From a virus, in UHGV virus genome UHGV-0455966: a stretch of 41,149 bases of DNA, one strand, 5' to 3'. Both the position numbers and the translations under genes were made by a program. The notes beneath the pieces are model-generated. The model was not told the origin of the DNA and ran no database searches. It saw only the letters and a list, made by a program, of their open reading frames with translations. Of the stretch, positions 1,058 through 40,733 are shown piece by piece. The first letter of the stretch is position 1. Each line of letters starts with the position of its first letter.

Positions 1058-1650
1058 TGATTACCATCCTGACGTTCTTTGAGTCGCTTCCTGGCTGCCG
1101 CTATGCGATCAGCAATTGTCACATTCACATTAACATCCAGGCGTTCTTTGAATGCGTTGACGTCGACGTGCTTACCAATCAGTTCGAGGTTCTTCACCTT
1201 GTCAGGCCATTTAATTTTTTTGAGGATTGTCTCTATCGAATCCTCGTTCATGTTCATGATGGTCGATGACAGATCAAAGCCACTAAGCGTAGTGCGCCAG
1301 ATTTTCGGCCACTCACGGATTGGTTTAAGGCTCCCATCGTCGTTGAGGATATCGATCACGTCCATCTGGTCGATCTCCACCAGGCGCATGAGAACGTAAT
1401 CAGCACTGACGCGCATTCGTTTGTTGCGCTCCTCCATCAACTCGGCAATCCGTTTTTGAATGCGTTCATCGCGCATCATGACACTGGCTTTAACTGCCGC
1501 TGTATTTGGGGAGAATCCTGCGTTAATCGCTGCCTGAGTCTGGTTTTCAGGCGTTTTGATGTATGACTGGCAATAAGCCTCCTGCATTGCTGTGAGCGGC
1601 TTAAATTGCGTTGATTTGCGTTTATAGGTTTTAGGTTCAGCAGGCATCAT
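1054..1650 (-). CDS. terS: terminase small subunit
   Basis: Translation from MMPAEPKTYKRK...TAMQEAYCQSYIKTPENQTQAAINAGFSPNTAAVKA resembles Terminase_2-type small subunits; immediately upstream of terL. Track ORF start (1728) is probably an over-extension through a terminator and repeat. Confidence 0.7.
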   Translation of the reverse strand: MMPAEPKTYKRKSTQFKPLTAMQEAYCQSYIKTPENQTQAAINAGFSPNTAAVKASVMMRDERIQKRIAELMEERNKRMRVSADYVLMRLVEIDQMDVIDILNDDGSLKPIREWPKIWRTTLSGFDLSSTIMNMNEDSIETILKKIKWPDKVKNLELIGKHVDVNAFKERLDVNVNVTIADRIAAARKRLKERQDGNQ

Positions 1651-1654
1651 AACC

Positions 1655-1690
1655 ACCGTGGTAATAGTTACCGTTGTGGTAATAGTACCA
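1655..1690. repeat. tandem direct repeat GTGGTAATAGT(T)ACC x2 directly upstream of terS start
   Basis: Two 15-nt copies spaced 18 bp at 1658-1672 and 1676-1690, each containing GGTAA-N3-(T)TACC; lies between a minus-strand terminator and the terS ATG. Confidence 0.6.
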
Positions 1691-1691
1691 T

Positions 1692-1719
1692 GCAAAATAA
1701 AGCCGCCATAGTTGGCGGC
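1692..1719 (-). terminator. intrinsic terminator separating early/nin-like genes from terS
   Basis: Hairpin GCCGCC-atagtt-GGCGGC (1702-1719); on the minus strand followed by UUUAUUUU. Confidence 0.55.
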
Positions 1720-1768
1720 AGTATTCAAAACCCATCAAATTCATCATGCATAATCTACTCGTAACATG

Positions 1769-2110
1769 TCACACTATTAATTTCGTTTCATGCCAGCCTT
1801 TAGTCACCCAGCATTGCGAGTCACCATTACACGGGCATGAATTAACTGGAACTCTCTCGCCGCACTTACCGCAACGTTTTCTGCTGATCGATTTTATACG
1901 CCCGTGCACGCGTGCATCATCCTGGCGGATCAATAACGCTATATACTCACCAAATTCGTAAGGCGCACGCCCGGGGCGACGCGTGGCACAGTTACGCTCC
2001 AGCATTTCAATTTCCTGAGCATCAAGCACAATTTCCAGCTTACGCACACCAGATGCAGCTTGTCTGGCTCTCTGAGCGGCTTTGCGCTCTGCTGCTGATT
2101 TAGCCATCAA
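1769..2110 (-). CDS. hypothetical zinc-ribbon protein, possible late-gene regulator
   Basis: C-terminal CGKCGERVPVNSCPCNGDSQC cysteine cluster; sits immediately upstream of the terminator/terS, where lambdoid late regulators usually lie. Confidence 0.45.
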   Translation of the reverse strand: MMAKSAAERKAAQRARQAASGVRKLEIVLDAQEIEMLERNCATRRPGRAPYEFGEYIALLIRQDDARVHGRIKSISRKRCGKCGERVPVNSCPCNGDSQCWVTKGWHETKLIV

Positions 2111-5451: not shown

Positions 5452-5568
5452 GATTTACCTCTAAGGTAATTAAAAACCACATAAGACACGAAATCAATAG
5501 AGTTTAGAATATTTTGTTACCTGATAGGTAATTATTGAGACGTAAAAAAATGCGCTATCGCGCTGGTA

Positions 5569-6369
5569 TTACTTGATAAATCCTGCCACCTTTCCCCGCC
5601 TGTATTCCTCCATCAGCCACTGCGCCGGTGTTATTCCCCCAAGGGTGGCGGCGTTAGGCATGCACCCGAAACTTCGCCCTGGTGGATGGTAAACGTCTCT
5701 CCCTGTGTCCGGAGGCGTACTCATGGGTTCTGGCTTTGCCTGTATGCTGATCACCGGATCGGGTATCTGCTGTCCGGAAGCCACCTTTTTCGCCCAATCA
5801 TCGAGCAGCCTGCGCGCGTGTTTCTCAACCTCAATCTCGCTAAGCTGGCGCTGATACATTGCACGGCGGGTATCACATACGACCCAGTACATAACCGGAT
5901 GTCGCCACGGGAATCTTTCGGGACCACCAGGATATAAACTTTTTTCCTTGCTGTACCGGTGAAACTCCGCCATCACATCGTCAATGGTGACGCCAAGAAC
6001 CATCTTGCTGTCTTTACACCACTTGATGAATTGCCCTGGCGACGGCCAGAACGGAGACTCACTGGCGCGGGCGTGGCGCATACCAGCAGAAACCTGTTCA
6101 CGGGTTCGGATCCCCCCTTCGGCAAACGCAGCAATCCACTGCTGTTTTGCAGCAACTTCCTGCTCTGGCGTCTTCAGGTTGGTTACCACTGCCGCCGGAA
6201 ACAGTTGTTTCAGCTGTTTAAAAAGGGCATCAACAAGCCTCTCTGCTGACATGTTCACCACATTGTCATTGTTGACGTACTGATGCTCATAACCTGACAT
6301 GCGAGAAAGGGCTTCTCCGTCACGGTTTTGTATCGCAGTAAAAACGTTGTTCACAAGAAATCCTCCCAT
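5569..6369 (-). CDS. replication protein P-like (helicase loader)
   Basis: ...AAFAEGGIRTREQVSAGMRHARASESPFWPSPGQFIKWCKD aligns by eye with lambda P ...NGITTMEQVNAGMRVARRQNRPFLPSPGQFVAWCRE; start may be a later Met since it overlaps the O-like gene end. Confidence 0.7.
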   Translation of the reverse strand: MGGFLVNNVFTAIQNRDGEALSRMSGYEHQYVNNDNVVNMSAERLVDALFKQLKQLFPAAVVTNLKTPEQEVAAKQQWIAAFAEGGIRTREQVSAGMRHARASESPFWPSPGQFIKWCKDSKMVLGVTIDDVMAEFHRYSKEKSLYPGGPERFPWRHPVMYWVVCDTRRAMYQRQLSEIEVEKHARRLLDDWAKKVASGQQIPDPVISIQAKPEPMSTPPDTGRDVYHPPGRSFGCMPNAATLGGITPAQWLMEEYRRGKVAGFIK

Positions 6370-7166
6370 GCTTCAGGGCTGTTCCAGTGCGGAACGTTGT
6401 TATCAGGTAATGTTGATTGCTTCTGTCTGCTAATCTGCAGCCGCCTTGCCAGCTTCTGCTCCCACTGTGCCTGATGGTATGCCTTACCCTCAGCCATCCA
6501 GTAAATTCTGAACTCTGCAAGTTCCTGTGCCGTTGGCAGACTGTCCAGGTAGATCCCCTGCAATGAGCTTTTCCGAAGAAAGTCATCTGATGGCTGCCAT
6601 TGTTCATGCATGACAAATTTGCCTAATTGCCCTGGCCCACCAGGAGGAACAAAGTTATTCATCACGGCGTTGTTTGCGCCGGGGTCATGAGGCACAGAAT
6701 CCCCGCTTTTTGTCCTGCTCTCCCTCTCTTGGTTAAATGACTGGTTATATGACTGGTTCTGGATCCCGTTTTTGGGATCATTCAACATCCCGTTTTTGGG
6801 ATCATTCAACATCCCGTTTTTGGGTATATTCCCGTTTTCGGTAACATTACCGTTTTCGGGTCCATTACCCCCTTCCCGGTTGCCTTTAATGTTCCCGTTT
6901 TTGGTTATATTAAGAGAGAAAACCCGCACTCTTTTCGTCGCTCCCTTTCTCTCTCCGGTATCTGAAATAAGCCCCATTTTCATGAGCGATATAAGCCCGG
7001 CCTGCACGGTTTTTTTATTCAGGCAAGTGTCTTTAACGAGGCGTTCTATGCTGGGGTAGCAGAGGTTATATTCATCGGCTCTGTCAGCCATCGAGAGCAG
7101 TATGAGCTTTAATGACGAGCTACCTGGATCTGTCTCCCAGGCCCAATCTGTTGCATGTCTGCTCAT
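6351..7166 (-). CDS. replication initiator, O-like, with internal origin iterons
   Basis: N-terminal HTH-like region, Asn/Gly-rich repeat KNGMLNDPKNGMLNDPKNG encoded by DNA iterons, directly upstream of P-like gene. Confidence 0.65.
   Translation of the reverse strand: MSRHATDWAWETDPGSSSLKLILLSMADRADEYNLCYPSIERLVKDTCLNKKTVQAGLISLMKMGLISDTGERKGATKRVRVFSLNITKNGNIKGNREGGNGPENGNVTENGNIPKNGMLNDPKNGMLNDPKNGIQNQSYNQSFNQERESRTKSGDSVPHDPGANNAVMNNFVPPGGPGQLGKFVMHEQWQPSDDFLRKSSLQGIYLDSLPTAQELAEFRIYWMAEGKAYHQAQWEQKLARRLQISRQKQSTLPDNNVPHWNSPEAWEDFL
6763..6914. repeat. putative replication origin iterons inside the O-like gene
   Basis: About 6 copies of TCCCGTTTT(T)GG at roughly 20-24 bp spacing (two perfect 24-mers ATCCCGTTTTTGGGATCATTCAAC at 6763 and 6787), followed by AT-rich stretch. 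Confidence 0.65.
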
Positions 7167-7181
7167 GATTAATCTCCGCTA

Positions 7182-7382
7182 TCAGCTTGAATGTTGTGGG
7201 GAGGAATTAATCATGATCTGCTTAATCTCTGCCCTGATACGACGGTTTGATTCCATGGTGCACTCAACACAGTGTCCGTTGTAAACCCAGCGTTCACTGT
7301 CATGTCCGTGCTTACATGGTTTTCCGGTGTAGTAGCGTTTAAGTCCGCGCTTTGCGGCATCAATACGTGTAATGATTTCCAT
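7182..7382 (-). CDS. hypothetical small Cys/His-containing protein (cII-position gene)
   Basis: MEIITRIDAAKRGLKRYYTGKPCKHGHDSERWVYNGHCVEC...; sits between Cro-like gene and O-like gene. Confidence 0.45.
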   Translation of the reverse strand: MEIITRIDAAKRGLKRYYTGKPCKHGHDSERWVYNGHCVECTMESNRRIRAEIKQIMINSSPQHSS

Positions 7383-7483
7383 GGTAAGCCCTGTTATTAG
7401 TATTGGGATTACGGTCATTTTGTGCTGACACAAAAAAAAGATCAACCAGATTTGGTTTTTTATTACCTTTGAGGTACGAATAG

Positions 7484-7511
7484 ATATGAAAAGACCGCCG
7501 GGTGGCGGTCT
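7484..7511 (-). terminator. intrinsic terminator downstream of Cro-like gene (tR1-like position)
   Basis: 8-bp stem AGACCGCC/GGCGGTCT with GGGT loop; minus strand followed by UUUUC. Confidence 0.5.
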
Positions 7512-7532
7512 ACAGAGGGTTGTAGCTGGATA

Positions 7533-7763
7533 TCATGAGTAGAAGAAGTATGCCAGTTCTGCTTTTGAGCGCAGCCATTGTCTTGTTTTACAGGCTTTAA
7601 AAAGCCCATTCATCAATACTTTACCTGGCATTTTGCGCTTACCTGTTAAGTGAGTCTGGATATAGTGACTCGTCGTTCCGGCTTCCTGTGCGAAGGCTTC
7701 ACGCTCATCCGGAGTAAGTGCAAGCCAGTGCTTTTTGAAATCGAAATGTCCGTTATCGCTCAT
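7533..7763 (-). CDS. Cro-like HTH regulator
   Basis: HTH-like DEREAFAQEAGTTSHYIQTHLTGKRK; divergent from repressor; first gene of the operon leading to O/P. Confidence 0.6.
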   Translation of the reverse strand: MSDNGHFDFKKHWLALTPDEREAFAQEAGTTSHYIQTHLTGKRKMPGKVLMNGLFKACKTRQWLRSKAELAYFFYS

Positions 7764-7917
7764 AGCTATTGCCTGATATTTATTTCAGATAATAAATATT
7801 CACCCATAAGGTAACAAAAATCAAGGATAGTTACCTATGAGGTGCATTTACCTGTTGGGTAATATTGCTTTAAATTGAATCATCTACTGATTCATATATG
7901 AGGCGATTTTCCAGAAA
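7764..7917. promoter_or_regulatory. divergent immunity control region with operator-like palindromes
   Basis: TTACC-tgttg-GGTAA at 7848-7862 (perfect), TTACC-tatga-GGTGC at 7831-7845, extra half-sites; AT-rich promoter-like hexamers on both strands. Confidence 0.6.
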
Positions 7918-8502
7918 ATGAAAAGTATCCAGGACGTCCGCAGGCAAAATCTCAACGACTTGATCGACCGTGAATTCAATGGTGTTCAGACGCGGATGGC
8001 AGAAAAACTTGGAACTCAGGCAAATCTGGTAAACCGCTGGGCTCTTGGCAAGAAGGTTATCGGCGACCAGGTTGCACGAAAAATTGAAGCTGCCGCCAAT
8101 AAACCCCGTAACTGGCTTGATATTGATCGCTCGCTTTCTCAGGAGGGTTTTCAGCCTGTCGGCCCGAGTGATATAGGTCAGCTGGCGGCTCACAACCTGG
8201 AACGCTGGATGAGCGAAAGCCGCGACCTTTCAACGCAGGGAAAACTACACCGCGCATCCGGCGTCGCCCAGGTGACAATCAGCCGCCTGTTAAACAATGA
8301 GGTCAGCGTTTCCATTTCCACCCTGGAGAATGTTGCATCCGCATTCGGGCGTCACGGCTATGAATTACTGATTCACCCGCACGACCCTGCGACCATCAAC
8401 TATGATCGCTCGCGCTACGCATTGTTACCCGAAACCGAGAAAGCAAAGATCGAAAGTTACATTGAATTTGTCATCAACCAGAACGAAAAAAACAAACAAT
8501 AA
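7918..8502 (+). CDS. prophage repressor with two HTH domains, no S24 peptidase motif
   Basis: HTH 1 QTRMAEKLGTQANLVNRWALGKK, HTH 2 LHRASGVAQVTISRLLNNEVSVSISTLENVASAFG; no GDSM/Ser-Lys dyad region; divergent from Cro-like gene. Confidence 0.7.
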   Translation: MKSIQDVRRQNLNDLIDREFNGVQTRMAEKLGTQANLVNRWALGKKVIGDQVARKIEAAANKPRNWLDIDRSLSQEGFQPVGPSDIGQLAAHNLERWMSESRDLSTQGKLHRASGVAQVTISRLLNNEVSVSISTLENVASAFGRHGYELLIHPHDPATINYDRSRYALLPETEKAKIESYIEFVINQNEKNKQ

Positions 8503-8522
8503 AATCATATTTTTCAGTAAGT

Positions 8523-8548
8523 AAGCCGCCTTCTGGCGGCTTTTTTAT
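8523..8548 (+). terminator. intrinsic terminator after repressor gene
   Basis: GCCGCC-ttct-GGCGGC followed by TTTTTT. Confidence 0.7.
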
Positions 8549-8559
8549 TGCCTATTCGA

Positions 8560-8636
8560 TTACCTAATGGGTAATTTTTTTAACTCATATCTATTGACAT
8601 CAAACCAGATACGCATAATTATTACCTCAACGGTAA
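8560..8636 (+). promoter_or_regulatory. pL-like early-left promoter flanked by two operator palindromes
   Basis: TTGACA at 8594-8599; palindromes TTACC-taatg-GGTAA (8560-8574) and TTACC-tcaac-GGTAA (8622-8636). Confidence 0.55.
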
Positions 8637-8655
8637 CAGACCGAGGTAACAAGTT

Positions 8656-18700: not shown

Positions 18701-18715
18701 TTACCTTTCAGGTAA
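18701..18715. promoter_or_regulatory. palindrome TTACC-tttca-GGTAA
   Basis: Perfect 15-mer, identical to the site at 39249-39263; AACCACATA box ~32 bp upstream. Confidence 0.6.
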
Positions 18716-18752: not shown

Positions 18753-18772
18753 TACTGTATAAATATACAGTT
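18753..18772 (+). promoter_or_regulatory. LexA (SOS) box over the -10 region of the small antirepressor-like gene
   Basis: TACTGTATAAATATACAGTT = CTGT-N8-ACAG, matching the E. coli LexA consensus TACTGTATATATATACAGTA at 18 of 20 positions; 20 bp upstream of ATG 18792. Confidence 0.7.
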
Positions 18773-18791: not shown

Positions 18792-19049
18792 ATGCAGCAG
18801 TATCACTATCCACTGGAAGACGGATTTACCGAAAGGATTCACACGCCGGGAGGCGTCAGGTCACTGGTGGAGGGATCGCACTTGATGAAATTACTCCGGG
18901 ATCTCGATAAGGATGGATTTAATGTCGATGGCCCACTTGCCGAACTGACTGCACTGATTAACTACGTCACCAGCTCACAGATGTCTATGCAGGATCTGCA
19001 AACACATCTCGACTATTGTGCCGAACAATTACGAAAACAAACCCGGTAA
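18792..19049 (+). CDS. small antirepressor-like protein (SOS-controlled candidate)
   Basis: GGAGAAG RBS; C-terminal LMKLLRDLDKDGFNVDGPLAELTALINYV...LQTHLDY matches the C-terminus of the BRO-N antirepressor at 20435-21130. Confidence 0.55.
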   Translation: MQQYHYPLEDGFTERIHTPGGVRSLVEGSHLMKLLRDLDKDGFNVDGPLAELTALINYVTSSQMSMQDLQTHLDYCAEQLRKQTR

Positions 19050-19073: not shown

Positions 19074-19580
19074 TTAACAGTCGTAAAATTCCGGGTCCCA
19101 CAAACTTGCATCGCGCGGCATGGATTCTAAATTTTTCAGCCGCAAAATTCTGTCACACTCGACAAGAAGTTTTTGTTTTTGTTCGTCAATTTCTACTTTT
19201 TTGTGTGCTGGCTCATCCCAGTAATCCAGAAGAAACGCATGTCGCTCAGACGTTACAAGATAAATCACATACACATCACTGGTTGGTATTTTTTTATGCT
19301 TGTTGGTGGTCTTGTCTTTCTTCCCGGATGCCCAGTTTTTCCAGCATTGTTCCGTACCGCTCTCACCAAACTTGTCAGTATAGTTTCCGATGTTTACGTG
19401 AACGTGGCGTATGTGATATTCCAGCATCTCTTTCGGTGGATCCCGAAACAGAGTGTCCTTTCCGAAATCCTTATGATGACCGTAGCGCCAGTGATCTATG
19501 AACGCGTTTTTGATAGGTATTAGCTCAGGGTCCTTCCCAAAAATTCCAGGGTGAACCAACCCCTGGAATTTATTCAGCAT
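19074..19580 (-). CDS. hypothetical basic protein, toxin-like candidate
   Basis: His-rich HIRHVHVN motif and Lys-rich centre; second gene of a two-gene cassette overlapping the upstream gene by 11 nt. Confidence 0.45.
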   Translation of the reverse strand: MLNKFQGLVHPGIFGKDPELIPIKNAFIDHWRYGHHKDFGKDTLFRDPPKEMLEYHIRHVHVNIGNYTDKFGESGTEQCWKNWASGKKDKTTNKHKKIPTSDVYVIYLVTSERHAFLLDYWDEPAHKKVEIDEQKQKLLVECDRILRLKNLESMPRDASLWDPEFYDC

Positions 19581-19989
19581 CGTCGTAGAGCTCCTGAGCC
19601 ATATCTTCGGCAGTGCGTGCAAACATCCTGCGCGAGATTGCATGAGATTTCTCGACGGACATCTTTGGGACCTCATGCATAACATTTTTGGGAGTTGTGT
19701 AATAGCCTATTACAATTTTCACACCTGACTTATGATTAATATCAGCATAATATACTTCTTGTTCAGACGTTTCACGACGAACATAATCTGCCAGTTTTCC
19801 ACATTTAAATTCCCCTCCCTGATGTTTTAAAATCTCCTCAACTGCACTATTTTCAGTGAAATACCGAATAAGAAATTTCTGTCCAGACTCTTCAGCATGA
19901 GGTATAACAGTATTATTGGAAGCCCGAACAATGGCCTTACTCAATATTTCATGGTCTTTATTTTTTTCTGATTTCCTCAAATGCTGCAT
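19570..19989 (-). CDS. hypothetical protein, first gene of the cassette (antitoxin-like candidate)
   Basis: ATG at 19989 with GAGAG RBS; acidic C-terminal tail AEDMAQELYDDAE. Confidence 0.4.
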   Translation of the reverse strand: MQHLRKSEKNKDHEILSKAIVRASNNTVIPHAEESGQKFLIRYFTENSAVEEILKHQGGEFKCGKLADYVRRETSEQEVYYADINHKSGVKIVIGYYTTPKNVMHEVPKMSVEKSHAISRRMFARTAEDMAQELYDDAE

Positions 19990-20150
19990 TACTGTAGCTC
20001 TCTTCGTGTTCACGGGCACCCCCAACTACCTCTAGGGTAAACATTCTATCGAAAGTATACGCATACTGGCAAAAAAATAGGCAGGTATTTTCTGAAATGG
20101 GATCAATCAAACCACATAGGGTTGAAATAACGTGAGTTATGCATTTATTA

Positions 20151-20165
20151 TTACCTTTGCGGTAA
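20151..20165. promoter_or_regulatory. palindrome TTACC-tttgc-GGTAA
   Basis: Perfect 15-mer; AACCACATA box at 20110-20118. Confidence 0.6.
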
Positions 20166-20169
20166 ATTT

Positions 20170-20277
20170 ACATCGCACTCCTCTTGTGCCATAGTAATCG
20201 GGCACTGGAAAAATCCAGTGCCGGGATTGGCGTCCCGGATTACTAAAAGGCGCATTCACCGCGCAAGCGGTTTTTTT
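20170..20277 (+). ncRNA. candidate small structured RNA / structured leader upstream of antirepressor
   Basis: Y-shaped fold: outer stem AGTAATC/GATTACT (20193-20244) enclosing hairpins GGCACTGG/CCAGTGCC and GGGA/TCCC; then CCGC-gcaa-GCGG + T7 terminator (20257-20277). Confidence 0.35.
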
Positions 20278-20434
20278 ATGCGTATAGCACGGCCACATTC
20301 GTATTATGGTGGGCTGTGTGGGGGCACCGAAAGGTGCGCCGGGTCCTTTTAGCCGGTTACGCCAACCCTGCACAGTTCACCACCAACCGATTGGCGTCGG
20401 TAGTGGTGATTAACCAGACTAAAAGGTAACCACT

Positions 20435-21130
20435 ATGACAGCTACAAAAAGCACGTCCATTTTTTCTTTCGAATCCCAAGCCGATATACGGGTAATCGTC
20501 ATTAATGGTGAGCCATGGTTTATCGCTTCAGATGTTTGTCGGGCTATAGGCATAGCAAATCATCGAGATGCTGTTCGAAAACTTGATGATGATGAGAAGG
20601 GCGTCGCTTCAACCGACACCCCTGGCGGTGAGCAAGAATCGATCATCATCTCCGAGTCAGGCCTCTACACACTGATCCTCCGCTGCCGCGACGCAGTGAC
20701 ACCAGGCACTATCCCCTACCGCTTTCGTAAATGGGTTACAGGTGAGGTTCTTCCTCAGATCCGCCGCACCGGAAGTTACATTAAAAACTCGCTCCCGCAG
20801 GAAGAACGCATAAAGATGGTTGCCGACCAGGTAGCCAACGCCACAGCATCAGCAGTGATGCAGGCAATGAAGATAGAGAACAAAACCTACAGTGCCCCAC
20901 TGAAGCCCGGCTACCGCAGCCTGATTCATTCGCCGTCTGGTGTTCTCGGCCTGACGGAGAACTCACTGCTGATGAATCTGCTGAACCAGTTACAGGAAGA
21001 CGGGCACGACGTATCGGGCGCGGCGGCGGAGCTGACCACCATGTTCTGCTACATCGTCGGTGTGAGCAAATGCCTGCGTGATATCCAGACCCACGCGGAG
21101 TACATCAACGACAAGGCAGGGTTCTTCTGA
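20435..21130 (+). CDS. BRO-N-domain antirepressor
   Basis: N-terminal FESQADIRVIVINGEPWFIASDVCRAIGIANHRDAVRKL typical of Bro-N/Ant proteins; C-terminal domain shared with 18792-19049. Confidence 0.7.
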   Translation: MTATKSTSIFSFESQADIRVIVINGEPWFIASDVCRAIGIANHRDAVRKLDDDEKGVASTDTPGGEQESIIISESGLYTLILRCRDAVTPGTIPYRFRKWVTGEVLPQIRRTGSYIKNSLPQEERIKMVADQVANATASAVMQAMKIENKTYSAPLKPGYRSLIHSPSGVLGLTENSLLMNLLNQLQEDGHDVSGAAAELTTMFCYIVGVSKCLRDIQTHAEYINDKAGFF

Positions 21131-21201: not shown

Positions 21202-21216
21202 TTACCTTAAAGGTAA
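21202..21216. promoter_or_regulatory. palindrome TTACC-ttaaa-GGTAA
   Basis: Perfect 15-mer about 27 bp upstream of ATG 21243. Confidence 0.6.
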
Positions 21217-39197: not shown

Positions 39198-39263
39198 ACC
39201 ACATATGATTTATTTATCGTAGATAGTTGACATTTAACGCACAAATTATTACCTTTCAGGTAA
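39198..39263 (+). promoter_or_regulatory. promoter-like module: AACCACATA box, TTGACA, palindrome TTACC-tttca-GGTAA
   Basis: AACCACATA 39198-39206, TTGACA 39227-39232, palindrome 39249-39263; upstream of structured region and tRNA. Confidence 0.5.
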
Positions 39264-39585: not shown

Positions 39586-39662
39586 GTGGCATTAGCTCAG
39601 TTGGACAGAGCAACCGCCTTCTAAGCGGTTGGTCGCAGGTTCGAATCCTGCATGCCGCGCCA
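39586..39662 (+). tRNA. tRNA-Arg (anticodon UCU)
   Basis: Hand-folded cloverleaf: acceptor GTGGCAT/ATGCCGC, D-stem GCTC/GAGC, anticodon stem ACCGC/GCGGT with loop CUUCUAA, T-arm GCAGG-TTCGAAT-CCTGC, discriminator G, encoded CCA. Confidence 0.85.
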
Positions 39663-39825: not shown

Positions 39826-39849
39826 GCCCGGTTCGCCGGGCATTTTTTT
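39826..39849 (+). terminator. strong intrinsic terminator (UUCG tetraloop)
   Basis: GCCCGG-ttcg-CCGGGC followed by ATTTTTTT. Confidence 0.7.
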
Positions 39850-39865
39850 GCCTGATGACCACAAA

Positions 39866-39883
39866 TTACCTTAAAGGTATAAT
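39866..39883 (+). promoter_or_regulatory. imperfect palindrome TTACC-ttaaa-GGTAT overlapping a perfect TATAAT
   Basis: TATAAT at 39878-39883 ends 1 nt before ATG 39885. Confidence 0.45.
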
Positions 39884-39884
39884 C

Positions 39885-40733
39885 ATGAAAAACTTTAAGG
39901 TAATTAGTATGTTCGAATCGTTCAAAGAGCTGTTTTTATCTACTGCCAATACTGCCGTGCATCGAGCTAAAAACCCTGTGCTAGGTGCTTTTGTTATGTC
40001 CTGGTGCGCCTTCAACTGGAAATCACTTCTTTATCTATTTTTTAGCAAATCAAATATAATAGATAAAATTTCATACATCTCAGATAACAGCACATGGAAA
40101 ACTGTTATGTTTTATCCATGCTTATCTGTAATTACTATCTGCTGCCTATTACCATGGGTAAACAATATCATTAACGTATGGCAAGCAAAGCCTCTTGATA
40201 ATAATGACTCAATCGAAAATCACCGGAAGGCAAGAAAAATACAACGTGAAACACGGCTACAGAGATTGCTGGCTAAAAAAGACATTACTTACGAAAAAGT
40301 AAAAACAGGCGCTGAAAAAAACATTCAAGACATGAAAGAGGAAATAATTCTTTCAAAAGACAGAATGGGACAACTCACATCTGAATTGAAAGAGAGGGAG
40401 ACAGAACTGCGCGCAGCACAAGCTCGTATTTTAGAATTATCTAAGGTTATTCATGAAACAACATCTAAACTAGAAAATCTAGAAAAAGCCCACAAAAATT
40501 TAAAAAACGAATATGAGTCCTATAAGAAAAACATTCCTTTGGCAACAAATAATACAATTGCTAATGGGTTTGTAGGTCTAAAATCATTACAAGACCTTAA
40601 TGAGTCCGTAAAGAAACTTGGCGTTACTGGAATTAACAATCCAGAAATCAGTACATTATTGAATAATCCTCTAGTAAATATAAATGGTGGTTTAAATTCC
40701 ACCCATCAAAGAAAATCAAAAACACAAAAGTAA
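39885..40733 (+). CDS. AT-rich accessory protein: two N-terminal TM helices + long coiled coil, unknown function
   Basis: ATG 39885 with AAGG RBS (track start 39813 lies inside a terminator); opposite strand to flanking late genes; low GC. Confidence 0.6.
   Translation: MKNFKVISMFESFKELFLSTANTAVHRAKNPVLGAFVMSWCAFNWKSLLYLFFSKSNIIDKISYISDNSTWKTVMFYPCLSVITICCLLPWVNNIINVWQAKPLDNNDSIENHRKARKIQRETRLQRLLAKKDITYEKVKTGAEKNIQDMKEEIILSKDRMGQLTSELKERETELRAAQARILELSKVIHETTSKLENLEKAHKNLKNEYESYKKNIPLATNNTIANGFVGLKSLQDLNESVKKLGVTGINNPEISTLLNNPLVNINGGLNSTHQRKSKTQK

What the first reader, a model, noticed from the sequence alone, without database searches (positions are those of the whole stretch)
7463..8636. 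Immunity region: repressor without an autocleavage domain, plus a tR1-like terminator
The repressor (7918-8502) has two HTH domains and no recognisable S24 peptidase signature (no GDSM-like serine motif), so RecA-stimulated self-cleavage is unlikely. Induction would then need an antirepressor, and two antirepressor-like genes are present elsewhere. A hairpin plus U-run follows the Cro-like gene, suggesting antitermination, but no N-like Arg-rich protein is evident.
Basis: partly seen in the sequence, partly recalled or inferred. Interest (0 to 1): 0.5.

Follow-up and report, generated by a model that had tools for sequence, protein, structure and literature searches.

The report
Known non-cleavable phage repressor with antirepressor
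This is the immunity region of a phiV10/epsilon15-type E. coli phage, whose repressor is switched off by a small SOS-controlled antirepressor rather than by self-cleavage; that mechanism has already been solved in the related phage SPC32H, so the finding is correct but ordinary.

Summary
ORF 7918-8502 encodes a 194-aa all-helical repressor with two HTH_3-like regions and no Peptidase_S24. A Cro-like gene (7533-7763, minus strand) is followed by a hairpin with a short U-run (7511-7492).

The system is already known. The window is a phiV10-like Uetakevirus. Its repressor is 100% identical to phiV10 p40 and to phage ZX5 ORF21. It is a full-length homologue of Salmonella phage SPC32H Rep (PDB 5D50/5D4Z).

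Both suspected antirepressor genes are real:
- The product of 18792-19049 is 88% identical to SPC32H Ant, which was co-crystallised with Rep. It sits behind an 18/20 LexA box.
- The product of 20435-21130 is a Bro-N protein 100% identical to ZX5 ORF4, which was tested experimentally. Its C-terminus is an Ant-like domain, and a P1-type C4 antisense RNA lies just upstream.

The antitermination idea is not supported. I found no N- or Q-like protein and no nut-like site near the early promoters. The putative Rep operator (TTACC-N5-GGTAA) occurs 16 times across the genome. One copy sits just after each early terminator. A promoter-like pair of hexamers conserved in seven relatives follows the cro hairpin.

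Verdict: correct on the repressor, already known, low interest.

The parts
7918..8502 (+). rep: SPC32H-type non-cleavable prophage repressor, 194 aa. It has an N-terminal HTH DNA-binding domain, a second HTH_3-like domain and a C-terminal tetramerisation/Ant-binding element.
   Evidence: 5D50_A, E 4e-42, residues 1-190; 100% identical to phiV10 p40 and ZX5 ORF21; 43% to SPC32H Rep.
7533..7763 (-). Cro-like small regulator, 76 aa, first gene of the rightward (minus-strand) early operon.
   Evidence: PHROG 35, E 5.6e-13; 77% identical to the SPC32H gene at the same position. No Pfam or PDB match.
7492..7511 (-). Hairpin plus short U-run after the Cro-like gene. Probably a leaky intrinsic terminator.
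   Evidence: -15.1 kcal/mol, z -4.7. Annotated as a terminator in phiV10. The stem is kept in seven phages, but the U-run is missing in SPC32H and epsilon15.
7463..7477 (.). Rep operator-like palindrome (TTACCTTTGAGGTAC, one mismatch), 11 nt after the U-run of the cro hairpin and 17 bp upstream of the -35 of the next promoter.
   Evidence: Conserved in phiV10, ZX5 and Tyrion; degenerate in SPC32H, epsilon15 and BUCT554.
7417..7457 (-). Candidate promoter of the replication operon. It reads TTGATC (7445-7440), 17 bp spacer, CAAAAT (7422-7417). The palindrome AACCA-N4-TGGTT (7444-7457) overlaps the -35.
   Evidence: TGGTTGATC and AAAAT are invariant in seven Uetakeviruses while the spacer varies..
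7800..7862 (.). OR: three operator-like sites between cro and rep, at 7800-7814, 7831-7845 (two mismatches) and 7848-7862. PR is TTGTTA (7817-7812), 17 bp, TATTAT (7794-7789), and wraps around the first site.
   Evidence: sites conserved in six phages.
8523..8542 (+). Intrinsic terminator after rep. It isolates rep transcription from the PL operon.
   Evidence: -21.1 kcal/mol, z -5.1. Annotated in phiV10.
8560..8636 (+). PL cassette: operator 8560-8574, -35 TTGACA 8594-8599, -10 AATTAT 8617-8622, operator 8622-8636. The two operator starts are exactly 62 bp apart.
   Evidence: promoter and both operators conserved in five phages.
18792..19049 (+). ant: small (85 aa) antirepressor, orthologue of SPC32H Ant.
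   Evidence: 5D50_E, E 4e-47; 88% identical to SPC32H Ant and 98% to phiV10 p24.
18753..18772 (.). LexA box TACTGTATAAATATACAGTT, matching 18 of 20 consensus positions. It overlaps the likely ant promoter.
   Evidence: exact CTGT-N8-ACAG at 18755-18770. CTGT and ACAG invariant in five phages.
18701..18715 (.). Rep operator in the intergenic region between the tailspike gene and ant.
   Evidence: The equivalent site is annotated 'protein_bind repressor' in epsilon15.
20122..20165 (+). Promoter of the second antirepressor operon: TTGAAA, 18 bp, TATTAT. Rep operator 20151-20165 starts at the last base of the -10.
20202..20277 (+). isrK-like RNA element. It carries the upstream pair of C4 target sequences and ends in a terminator.
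   Evidence: RF01394, 76.7 bits against a gathering score of 50..
20302..20387 (+). C4 antisense RNA of the P1/P7 immI type. Its segment CCTTTTAG (b') is complementary to the Shine-Dalgarno region of the next gene.
   Evidence: RF01695, 77.7 bits against a gathering score of 45; two targets for each of a' and b', with b2 at 20419-20426.
20435..21130 (+). Second antirepressor, 231 aa: an N-terminal Bro-N domain fused to a C-terminal Ant-like domain.
   Evidence: Bro-N, E 2.3e-21; 42% identity over 74 aa to Ant. PHROG 130 and 450; 100% identical to ZX5 ORF4. ORF4 tested by overexpression.

Best explanation
This is the immunity region of a phiV10-like Uetakevirus (epsilon15-type podophage).

Repression. 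Rep (7918-8502) is an SPC32H-type repressor with an N-terminal HTH domain that binds DNA. The rest of the protein is a second HTH-like domain and a C-terminal tetramerisation element. Rep most likely recognises the 15-bp palindrome TTACC-N5-GGTAA. Three copies lie between rep and cro, and two flank PL exactly 62 bp apart. About ten more are spread over the genome, in front of nearly every transcription unit, so one protein gates the whole lytic programme directly.

Induction. Rep has no protease domain and is not cleaved. DNA damage removes LexA from the box in front of ant (18792-19049). The 85-aa Ant then binds Rep and takes it off the DNA. A second protein (20435-21130) carries the same Ant-like domain fused to Bro-N. 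It is kept silent by a Rep operator at its promoter and by a P1-type C4 antisense RNA that covers its ribosome-binding site.

Terminator. The hairpin after the Cro-like gene closes the short cro transcript as a leaky terminator. The replication genes downstream are probably served by read-through plus their own conserved weak promoter. No N-type antitermination is needed.

Shown here:
- the homologies;
- absence of an S24 domain or fold;
- the LexA box, the operator distribution and the C4 complementarities;
- conservation of the hairpin and the promoter-like hexamers.

From the literature on relatives: Rep-Ant binding, the tetramer model and the overexpression phenotypes.

Inferred: that Rep binds each listed site, how efficient the terminator is, and that the downstream promoter is active.
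For: Identity of the phage and its proteins.
- The region is 98-99% identical in DNA to phiV10, PAS61 and ZX5.
- Rep is a full-length match to the SPC32H repressor 5D50_A (E 4e-42), and its C-terminal part matches 5D4Z. The same entries are the top fold matches.
- Rep is 100% identical to phiV10 p40 and ZX5 ORF21.

No self-cleavage.
- No Peptidase_S24. The model is all-helical.
- None of 86 homologue clusters has an S24 domain on record.

Antirepressors.
- Ant matches 5D50_E (E 4e-47; 88% identical).
- The LexA box is conserved.
- ZX5 is inducible by mitomycin C. Its identical repressor blocks lytic growth and its identical Bro-N protein lowers lysogeny.
- Published summaries describe the Rep tetramer and its disassembly by the Ant tetramer.
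- The Ant-like domain in the Bro-N protein. C4 and isrK RNAs and their targets.

Operators.
- 10 perfect and 6 one-mismatch sites, against 0.02 and 1.1 in shuffles. The same motif sits at equivalent places in five genomes.
- Such sites are annotated as repressor-binding in the epsilon15 RefSeq record.
- Four of the five best sigma-70-like hits in the window have an operator at or just after the -10.

Against antitermination. For a separate promoter after the hairpin.
Against: - No binding, cleavage or transcript data exist for this exact genome.
- The two primary SPC32H papers could not be read here. What I say about LexA control and the lack of cleavage in SPC32H rests on my memory of their abstracts, the PDB entries and citing papers.
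- Rep shares only 43% identity with SPC32H Rep (39% in the C-terminal part), so the details of the Ant interface may differ.
- The promoter after the cro hairpin has a poor -10 (CAAAAT) and lacks an operator over its start site. It may be weak or need an activator.
- The operator near ant is centred about 57 bp upstream of the likely ant start, so it may serve the divergent tailspike gene instead.
Confidence: 0.85

Rival explanations
1. Lambda-type induction: the repressor carries a cryptic LexA/CI-like protease and cleaves itself on activated RecA.
For: Only the general precedent of lambda and P22. ZX5 is inducible by mitomycin C, which fits either mechanism.
Against: - No Peptidase_S24 at E<=1.
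- No Ala-Gly site or G-D/E-S-M motif in the sequence.
- The AlphaFold2 model is all-helical.
- Fold matches are Rep of SPC32H and other HTH proteins; no S24-domain structure among the 50 matches listed.
- A homologue has been crystallised full-length in complex with its antirepressor.
Confidence: 0.02
2. The cro hairpin is an efficient terminator, and an unrecognised phage antiterminator is needed to reach the replication genes. That factor could be a protein, such as the 113-aa regulator at 1769-2110, or an RNA like HK022 put.
For: - A hairpin with a U-run sits between cro and the replication genes.
- Terminators also precede the DUF1064 gene and terS.
- A promoter-like site followed by a terminator lies between the regulator gene 1769-2110 and terS, a layout that recalls lambda PR'-tR'.
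Against: - No N, Q or other antiterminator family among the 19 candidate early and regulatory products scanned.
- No boxA near PL or PR.
- No Rfam element in 7000-9400.
- The leaders of PL and PR are about 27 nt, too short for a put-like RNA.
- The U-run is only four U, and it is absent in SPC32H and epsilon15 although gene order is the same.
- Conserved promoter-like hexamers follow the hairpin.
Confidence: 0.12
3. Repressor-assisted termination. Rep bound 10-12 nt after the U-run stalls RNA polymerase over a weak terminator. The terminators are then tight in the lysogen and leaky after Rep is removed, in the manner of a 'stoperator'.
For: The spacing is regular. An operator starts 10-12 nt after the U-run at four early terminators: after cro, rep, the P-like gene and the regulator gene before terS. 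A fifth lies 16 nt after its U-run at 39826-39841. The site after cro has no partner operator over a start point.
Against: - Compact genome layout explains the same spacing. Each operator is also the upstream member of a promoter cassette, as at PL and at 5455/5517, where pairs are exactly 62 bp apart in every phage that has them.
- The operator after cro is degenerate in SPC32H, epsilon15 and BUCT554.
- No transcript data are available.
Confidence: 0.12
4. The Bro-N/Ant-domain protein (20435-21130), not the small Ant, is the main inducer in this phage. The small gene would be redundant.
For: The identical ZX5 ORF4 lowered prophage titre from 10^9 to 10^6 when overexpressed. It carries an Ant-like C-terminal domain.
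Against: - It has no LexA box. Its promoter carries a Rep operator, and its ribosome-binding site is covered by C4 RNA, so it cannot respond first to DNA damage.
- SPC32H and epsilon15 lack this module altogether. SPC32H is SOS-inducible through the small Ant (my memory of Kim & Ryu 2013).
- The small ant gene has the conserved LexA box.
Confidence: 0.15

Closest known systems
Rep-Ant lytic switch of Salmonella phage SPC32H (Kim & Ryu 2013, J Virol 87:11775; Kim et al. 2016, PNAS 113:E2480; PDB 5D50, 5D4Z)
   Same: - Same genus and the same gene order: rep, divergent cro, ant between the virion genes and the tailspike gene.
- Rep is homologous over its full length, and Ant is 88% identical.
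- Same LexA box position.
- Same operator half-sites at equivalent places.
   Different: - Rep is only 43% identical (52% in the N-terminal domain, 39% in the C-terminal part).
- This phage adds a second, Bro-N-fused Ant-like protein with a C4/isrK RNA module, which SPC32H lacks.
- The hairpins after cro and rep have U-runs here but not in SPC32H.
Escherichia phages phiV10 (DQ126339) and vB_EcoP_ZX5 (MW722083; PMC9782041)
   Same: - Immunity-region DNA is 98-99% identical.
- Rep is 100% identical to both, and the Bro-N protein is 100% identical to ZX5 ORF4.
- Both terminators are already annotated in phiV10.
- The repressor and the Bro-N antirepressor were tested by overexpression in ZX5.
   Different: - The window carries extra genes: two minus-strand genes at 19074-19989 and a winged-helix gene at 9107-9313.
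- The ZX5 record annotates the small ant homologue only as hypothetical and overlays the C4 region with a small 'ash family' ORF. I did not find C4 or the small ant discussed in the sections of the paper I read.
LexA-controlled antirepressors of Gifsy prophages, coliphage 186 (Tum) and N15 (AntC) (PMC3121763)
   Same: Same logic: a repressor that is not cleaved, and an antirepressor gene outside the immunity region under direct LexA control.
   Different: No sequence relationship to those proteins was tested or seen. The Gifsy repressors are small (136 aa) and resemble the N-terminal domain of CI, whereas Rep here has a second HTH-like domain and a tetramerisation element.
Phage P1/P7 immunity: C1 repressor with dispersed operators, and immI (c4 antisense RNA, icd, ant)
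   Same: - One repressor with many operators scattered over the genome.
- An antirepressor gene preceded by a C4 RNA (RF01695). The RNA's two recognition segments each have an upstream and a downstream target, and the downstream one covers the ribosome-binding site.
   Different: - Operators here are symmetric 15-mers, whereas P1 C1 operators are asymmetric 17-mers (my knowledge).
- No icd-like gene was identified.
- Rep is unrelated to C1 as far as tested. The phage is an integrating podophage, not a plasmid prophage.
Lambda immunity region (cI, cro, N/nut, tR1)
   Same: Divergent repressor and cro genes around a three-site OR. A PL with operators, a terminator after the repressor unit, and a transcription stop between cro and the replication genes.
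   Different: No S24 domain, no N, no nut sites. Lambda tR1 is Rho-dependent, whereas this is a hairpin plus U-run. Each downstream unit has its own operator-gated promoter.

Membership tests
SPC32H-type Rep/Ant switch (Uetakevirus) | Repressor homologous to SPC32H Rep over its whole length | tested here: met
   5D50_A, E 4e-42, residues 1-190; top Foldseek hits are 5D50 and 5D4Z; 43% identity.
SPC32H-type Rep/Ant switch (Uetakevirus) | Small antirepressor homologous to SPC32H Ant, encoded outside the immunity region | tested here: met
   5D50_E, E 4e-47; 88% identity. The gene lies next to the tailspike gene, as in SPC32H.
SPC32H-type Rep/Ant switch (Uetakevirus) | LexA box overlapping the ant promoter | tested here: met
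   CTGTATAAATATACAG at 18755-18770, and 18/20 over the 20-mer consensus; conserved in SPC32H, epsilon15, phiV10 and ZX5.
SPC32H-type Rep/Ant switch (Uetakevirus) | Rep is not cleaved on SOS induction; Ant binds Rep and releases it from DNA | not testable with these tools
   Supported only indirectly: no S24 domain or fold, literature on the homologue and on the identical ZX5 proteins.
SPC32H-type Rep/Ant switch (Uetakevirus) | Shared palindromic operators in OR and PL | tested here: met
   TTACC-N5-GGTAA at equivalent positions in all genomes compared. Annotated as repressor-binding sites in epsilon15.
LexA/CI-type self-cleaving repressors (Peptidase S24) | C-terminal S24 domain with a Ser/Lys dyad and an Ala-Gly (or Cys-Gly) cleavage site | tested here: not met
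   no PF00717 at E<=1; no beta structure; no S24-domain structure among the 50 matches listed; the only invariant Ser in the family alignment is Ser3, at the N-terminus. No Ala-Gly in the sequence.
Lambda N/nut processive antitermination | Arg-rich N-like protein encoded at the start of the PL operon | tested here: not met
   The first PL gene products (50, 104 and 68 aa) match only unknown-function PHROG families or a winged-helix domain. No antiterminator family in the early-right genes.
Lambda N/nut processive antitermination | nut sites (boxA plus boxB) downstream of PL and of cro | tested here: not met
   the three boxA-like matches in the window (16398, 34511, 38915) are all far from PL and PR; no RNA family in 7000-9400.
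P1/P7 immI module (c4 RNA controlling ant) | C4 antisense RNA upstream of the antirepressor gene | tested here: met
   RF01695 at 20302-20387, 77.7 bits against a gathering score of 45.
P1/P7 immI module (c4 RNA controlling ant) | Two recognition segments of C4, each complementary to an upstream and a downstream target, the latter at the ribosome-binding site | tested here: met
   ACGCCAA pairs with 20227-33 and 20391-97. CCTTTTAG pairs with 20243-50 and 20419-26, the latter 9 nt before the ATG at 20435.
P1/P7 immI module (c4 RNA controlling ant) | An icd-like small gene translationally coupled to ant | not tested
   No such ORF was looked for in detail. ZX5 annotates a small 'ash family' ORF over the C4 region.

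The most novel reading that the evidence does not exclude
In phiV10-type phages the lytic programme may need no early-gene antitermination.
- Each early transcription unit would start with its own Rep-gated promoter placed right after the previous unit's terminator. That would be a P1-like dispersed-operator regulon laid out in a lambda-like gene order.
- Rep bound 10-12 nt after each U-run might also tighten those terminators in the lysogen.
- Induction would be driven by two paralogous Ant-domain proteins with different gates: LexA for the small one, and Rep plus a C4 antisense RNA for the Bro-N fusion. That arrangement would give a self-reinforcing switch.
- A second conserved palindrome (CCA-N4-TGG) overlaps the -35 of two of these promoters and would be the site of an as yet unassigned regulator.
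Probability: 0.35. Interest if true: 0.35.

Novelty: already known. Interest (0 to 1): 0.12.

Why it matters
It matters little as a discovery. The Rep-Ant mechanism, with a non-cleavable tetrameric repressor taken apart by a LexA-controlled antirepressor, has been solved in a relative. The very same repressor and Bro-N protein have been tested in phage ZX5.

The practical value is for annotation. In phiV10-like genomes the small gene next to the tailspike gene should be called ant. The 'hypothetical' region before the Bro-N gene is a C4/isrK RNA module. The TTACC-N5-GGTAA sites mark the promoters that Rep likely controls.

phiV10 derivatives are used as O157:H7 reporter phages (my knowledge). 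Knowing which elements hold lysogeny (rep, ant, the LexA box, the second Ant-like gene) is useful for engineering strictly lytic or non-inducible variants.

The open points are the role of the terminator-operator pairs and of the second palindrome. These are modest questions about transcription that can be tested directly.

Tried and rejected
- Operator spacing: my first search used a 6-bp spacer (TTACC-N6-GGTAA) and found only chance hits. The correct spacer is 5 bp.
- Cryptic protease: Pfam at E<=1, an AlphaFold2 model and Foldseek against the PDB all came back negative.
- Antiterminator search: Pfam and PHROG scans of 19 candidate early and regulatory products, a boxA pattern search and a permissive Rfam scan of 7000-9400. 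Nothing was found. The sub-threshold Rfam hits only reflect the rep terminator.
- Cro-like protein: no Pfam family above noise and no PDB sequence match.
- An inverted repeat in the rep leader (TGAATCA-N5-TGATTCA, about 7876-7894): rejected as a conserved element. Its arms decay without compensation in Tyrion and BUCT554, and it is absent in SPC32H and epsilon15.
- Two operator-like sites at 1650 and 1668: these first looked like a coding-sequence artefact inside the long terS ORF. In SPC32H and epsilon15 the equivalent sites lie upstream of a shorter terS, so they are probably real and the true terS start is the ATG just after them.
- PADLOC scan of the unknown genes around the antirepressor module: no hits.
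- Primary papers: the two SPC32H papers and the epsilon15 genome paper are not in the held library. Statements about them are marked as coming from memory or from citing papers.
I repeated it without them.
Full report
**What the window is.** The region 7000-9300 is 98-99% identical in DNA to Escherichia phages phiV10, PAS61, ZX5 and several others of the genus Uetakevirus (epsilon15-like podophages). Gene order matches phiV10 throughout. The terminase large-subunit gene appears to run across both ends of the window, so the window looks like a circularly permuted whole phage genome.

**Check of the observation.**
- ORF 7918-8502 (+) encodes 194 aa. Pfam finds HTH_3 with two stretches, the best at residues 106-147, and a YdaS/HTH-type match at 21-61. 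There is no Peptidase_S24 even at E<=1.
- The divergent ORF 7533-7763 (-) encodes a 76-aa protein. It has no Pfam family but matches PHROG 35 'transcriptional repressor'.
- After it comes a hairpin at 7511-7492 (-) with 8 pairs, 6 of them GC, and the tail TTTCATATCT. It folds at -15.1 kcal/mol, z = -4.7 against shuffles.
- A stronger terminator follows the repressor gene at 8523-8542 (-21.1 kcal/mol, z = -5.1).
- Both terminators and the 'two helix-turn-helix motifs' of the repressor are already written into the phiV10 GenBank record.

**What the repressor is.**
- A search of solved structures gives a full-length match (residues 1-190, E 4e-42) to chain A of 5D50, the 'Repressor' of the Rep-Ant complex from Salmonella phage SPC32H. 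The C-terminal half also matches 5D4Z.
- An AlphaFold2 model built on 23 homologues is all-helical (mean pLDDT 74.5, no strands). Its best PDB fold matches are those same entries, followed by ordinary XRE/HTH proteins. No S24-domain structure is among the 50 matches listed.
- The protein is 100% identical to phiV10 p40 and ZX5 ORF21. It is 43% identical to SPC32H Rep (52% in residues 1-75, 39% in 88-190).
- None of the 86 homologue clusters in Enterobacteriaceae has an S24 domain on record.
- Papers that cite the structure describe Rep as a dimer/tetramer that binds DNA as a tetramer, with DNA-binding domain pairs contributed by different dimers. They describe Ant as a tetramer that binds two Rep dimers. 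The C-terminal tetramerisation element also contacts Ant.
By homology, though, the C-terminal part of the protein is where oligomerisation and Ant binding reside, and it is not shown to bind DNA.

**The two antirepressor genes.**
- The 85-aa product of 18792-19049 matches chain E of 5D50 ('Anti-repressor protein', E 4e-47) and is 88% identical to SPC32H Ant.
- Directly upstream is TACTGTATAAATATACAGTT (18753-18772). It matches 18 of 20 positions of the LexA box consensus and contains an exact CTGT-N8-ACAG. The CTGT and ACAG arms are invariant in phiV10, ZX5, SPC32H and epsilon15.
- From my memory of the abstract of Kim & Ryu 2013 (the paper is not held): SPC32H Rep is not cleaved in the SOS response, Ant is repressed by LexA, and a point mutation in that LexA box makes the phage lytic.
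- The second gene, 20435-21130, has an N-terminal Bro-N domain. Its C-terminal 74 residues are 42% identical to Ant (E 8e-16), and both proteins hit PHROG 450.
- This second protein is 100% identical to ZX5 ORF4. In ZX5, overexpressing the repressor abolished free phage and cut lysis-gene transcripts by 99.9%. Overexpressing ORF4 lowered prophage titre from 10^9 to 10^6. Mitomycin C raised free phage from 10^7 to 10^9.
It is also already published for near-identical or homologous phages.

**Control of the second antirepressor.**
- Rfam places an isrK-like RNA at 20202-20277 and a C4 antisense RNA at 20302-20387, both well above gathering score.
- Two C4 segments, ACGCCAA and CCTTTTAG, are each complementary to one upstream target (20227-33 and 20243-50) and one downstream target (20391-97 and 20419-26). 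The last of these covers the Shine-Dalgarno region 9 nt before the ATG.
- This is the layout of the P1/P7 immI region (my knowledge of Citron & Schuster 1990).
- The operon's promoter (TTGAAA, 18 bp, TATTAT at 20122-20151) has an operator starting at its last base.
- SPC32H and epsilon15 lack this module.

**Operators.**
TTACC-N5-GGTAA occurs 10 times perfectly and 6 times with one mismatch in the window. Shuffled sequence gives 0.02 and 1.1.
- In the immunity region the sites are 7463, 7800, 7831 (two mismatches), 7848, 8560 and 8622.
- PL (TTGACA, 17 bp, AATTAT at 8594-8622) lies between two sites exactly 62 bp apart.
- The same cassette, with the same 62-bp spacing, follows the P-like replication gene at 5455/5517. 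The spacing recurs in phiV10, ZX5, SPC32H and epsilon15.
- Other sites lie before int, between ant and the tailspike gene, before the structural operon, before terS and before several accessory genes.
- Four of the five best sigma-70-like matches in the whole window have an operator at or just after the -10.
- The epsilon15 RefSeq record already annotates seven such sites as 'protein_bind: repressor'. The dispersed operators are therefore not new either. That Rep binds them here is an inference.

**The terminator and the antitermination idea.**
- I scanned 19 candidate products of the early and regulatory regions. None is an N- or Q-like protein or any other antiterminator family.
- The only three boxA-like strings are far from the early promoters. 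No Rfam element lies in 7000-9400.
- The PL and PR leaders are about 27 nt, which leaves no room for a put-like RNA.
- In an alignment of seven Uetakeviruses the hairpin stem is kept, with one position pair changing on both sides (A-U to G-C) and one wobble change. The U-run is present only in the phiV10/Enterobacter group and absent in SPC32H and epsilon15.
- Eleven nucleotides after the U-run comes an operator (7477-7463). Next is a palindrome AACCA-N4-TGGTT (7457-7444) that overlaps TTGATC, followed 17 bp later by CAAAAT. TGGTTGATC and AAAAT are invariant in all seven phages while the spacer varies.
- The next unit has the same order: small hairpin plus seven T, operator, TTGATT, 17 bp, TTTAAT, operator, Shine-Dalgarno, ATG.
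- The simplest reading is that the early-right region is cut into units. Each unit is closed by a terminator and reopened by its own Rep-gated promoter, and the cro hairpin acts as a leaky stop.
- Lambda tR1 is Rho-dependent, so 'tR1-like' applies to position only.
- Two alternatives stay open at low probability: an unrecognised antiterminator, and termination enhanced by Rep bound 10-12 nt after each U-run (a regular spacing at four early terminators). Transcript mapping would settle this.

**Comparison and verdict.**
- The system is a member of the SPC32H-type Rep/Ant switch. The repressor, the antirepressor, the LexA box and the operators all pass the tests that could be run here. Only the biochemistry could not be tested.
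- It works like the LexA-controlled antirepressor systems of Gifsy prophages, phage 186 and N15, but no sequence relationship to them was tested.
- It shares with P1 the dispersed-operator design and the C4-controlled antirepressor.
- It is not a lambda-type S24 repressor, and no lambda-type N/nut system was detected.
- The finding is real, and its main interpretation is right, but it is already known. The antitermination part is not supported.
- What remains mildly open: the role of the terminator-operator pairs, the unassigned CCA-N4-TGG palindrome, and the division of labour between the two Ant-domain proteins.

Noticed in passing
window 1650-1682, 5455-5531, 13847-13861, 18701-18715, 20026-20040, 20151-20165, 21202-21216, 39249-39263, 39866-39880: The repressor's 15-bp palindrome TTACC-N5-GGTAA is spread over the whole genome, in front of most transcription units. 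It sits at equivalent places in phiV10, ZX5, SPC32H and epsilon15. Pairs at PL and after the P-like gene are exactly 62 bp apart.
   Followed up: yes
window 7444-7457, 15970-15983, 20110-20123 (partial copies at 5475, 18661, 39197): A second conserved palindrome, AACC-N6-GGTT with core CCA-N4-TGG, occurs 3 times against 0.4 expected. It overlaps the -35 of the promoter after the cro hairpin and of the C4/antirepressor promoter. The protein that binds it is unknown.
   Followed up: partly
window 1702-1719, 5552-5563, 7492-7511, 8523-8542, 39826-39841: Terminator hairpins of the early units are each followed by a Rep operator that starts 10-16 nt after the U-run. This could be compact layout or repressor-assisted termination.
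   Followed up: partly
window 20202-20387: isrK-like RNA and C4 antisense RNA (Rfam, above gathering score) lie upstream of the Bro-N antirepressor gene, with P1-style duplicated target sequences. ZX5 annotates a small 'ash family' ORF over this stretch.
   Followed up: yes
window 19074-19989 (minus strand): Two genes of unknown function (one matches PHROG 9503; no Pfam or PADLOC hit) lie between ant and the C4 module and are absent from phiV10. They have a strong promoter (TTGCCA, 18 bp, TAGAAT) followed by a Rep operator at 20026-20040.
   Followed up: partly
window 6730-6869: Tandem repeats lie inside the replication-initiator gene 6351-7166: 24 bp x 2.6 at 100% identity, 18 bp x 3.1, and 12 bp x 2.4. 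They look like origin iterons, as in the lambda O gene.
   Followed up: no
window 39586-39662: tRNA-Arg (anticodon TCT), as in SPC32H. Rep operators lie at 39249 and 39866 on either side of it.
   Followed up: no
window 39885-40733 (+): A 282-aa protein whose sequence, judged by eye, has hydrophobic stretches and a long charged, possibly coiled-coil region. The -10 of its promoter (ATGACC, 17 bp, TATAAT) overlaps a Rep operator. It differs from the phiV10 gene at this position.
   Followed up: no
window 9107-9313 (+): A small winged-helix (MarR/HTH_24-like) gene in the PL operon that phiV10 lacks. Homology to phiV10 stops at about 9114.
   Followed up: no
window 1640-1790 (minus strand): The order here is: 113-aa regulator gene (1769-2110), a promoter-like site, a terminator, two tandem operators, then an ATG for terS. 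The layout recalls lambda PR'-tR'. The long terS ORF (start 1728) probably begins at the ATG after the operators, as annotated in SPC32H and epsilon15.
   Followed up: partly
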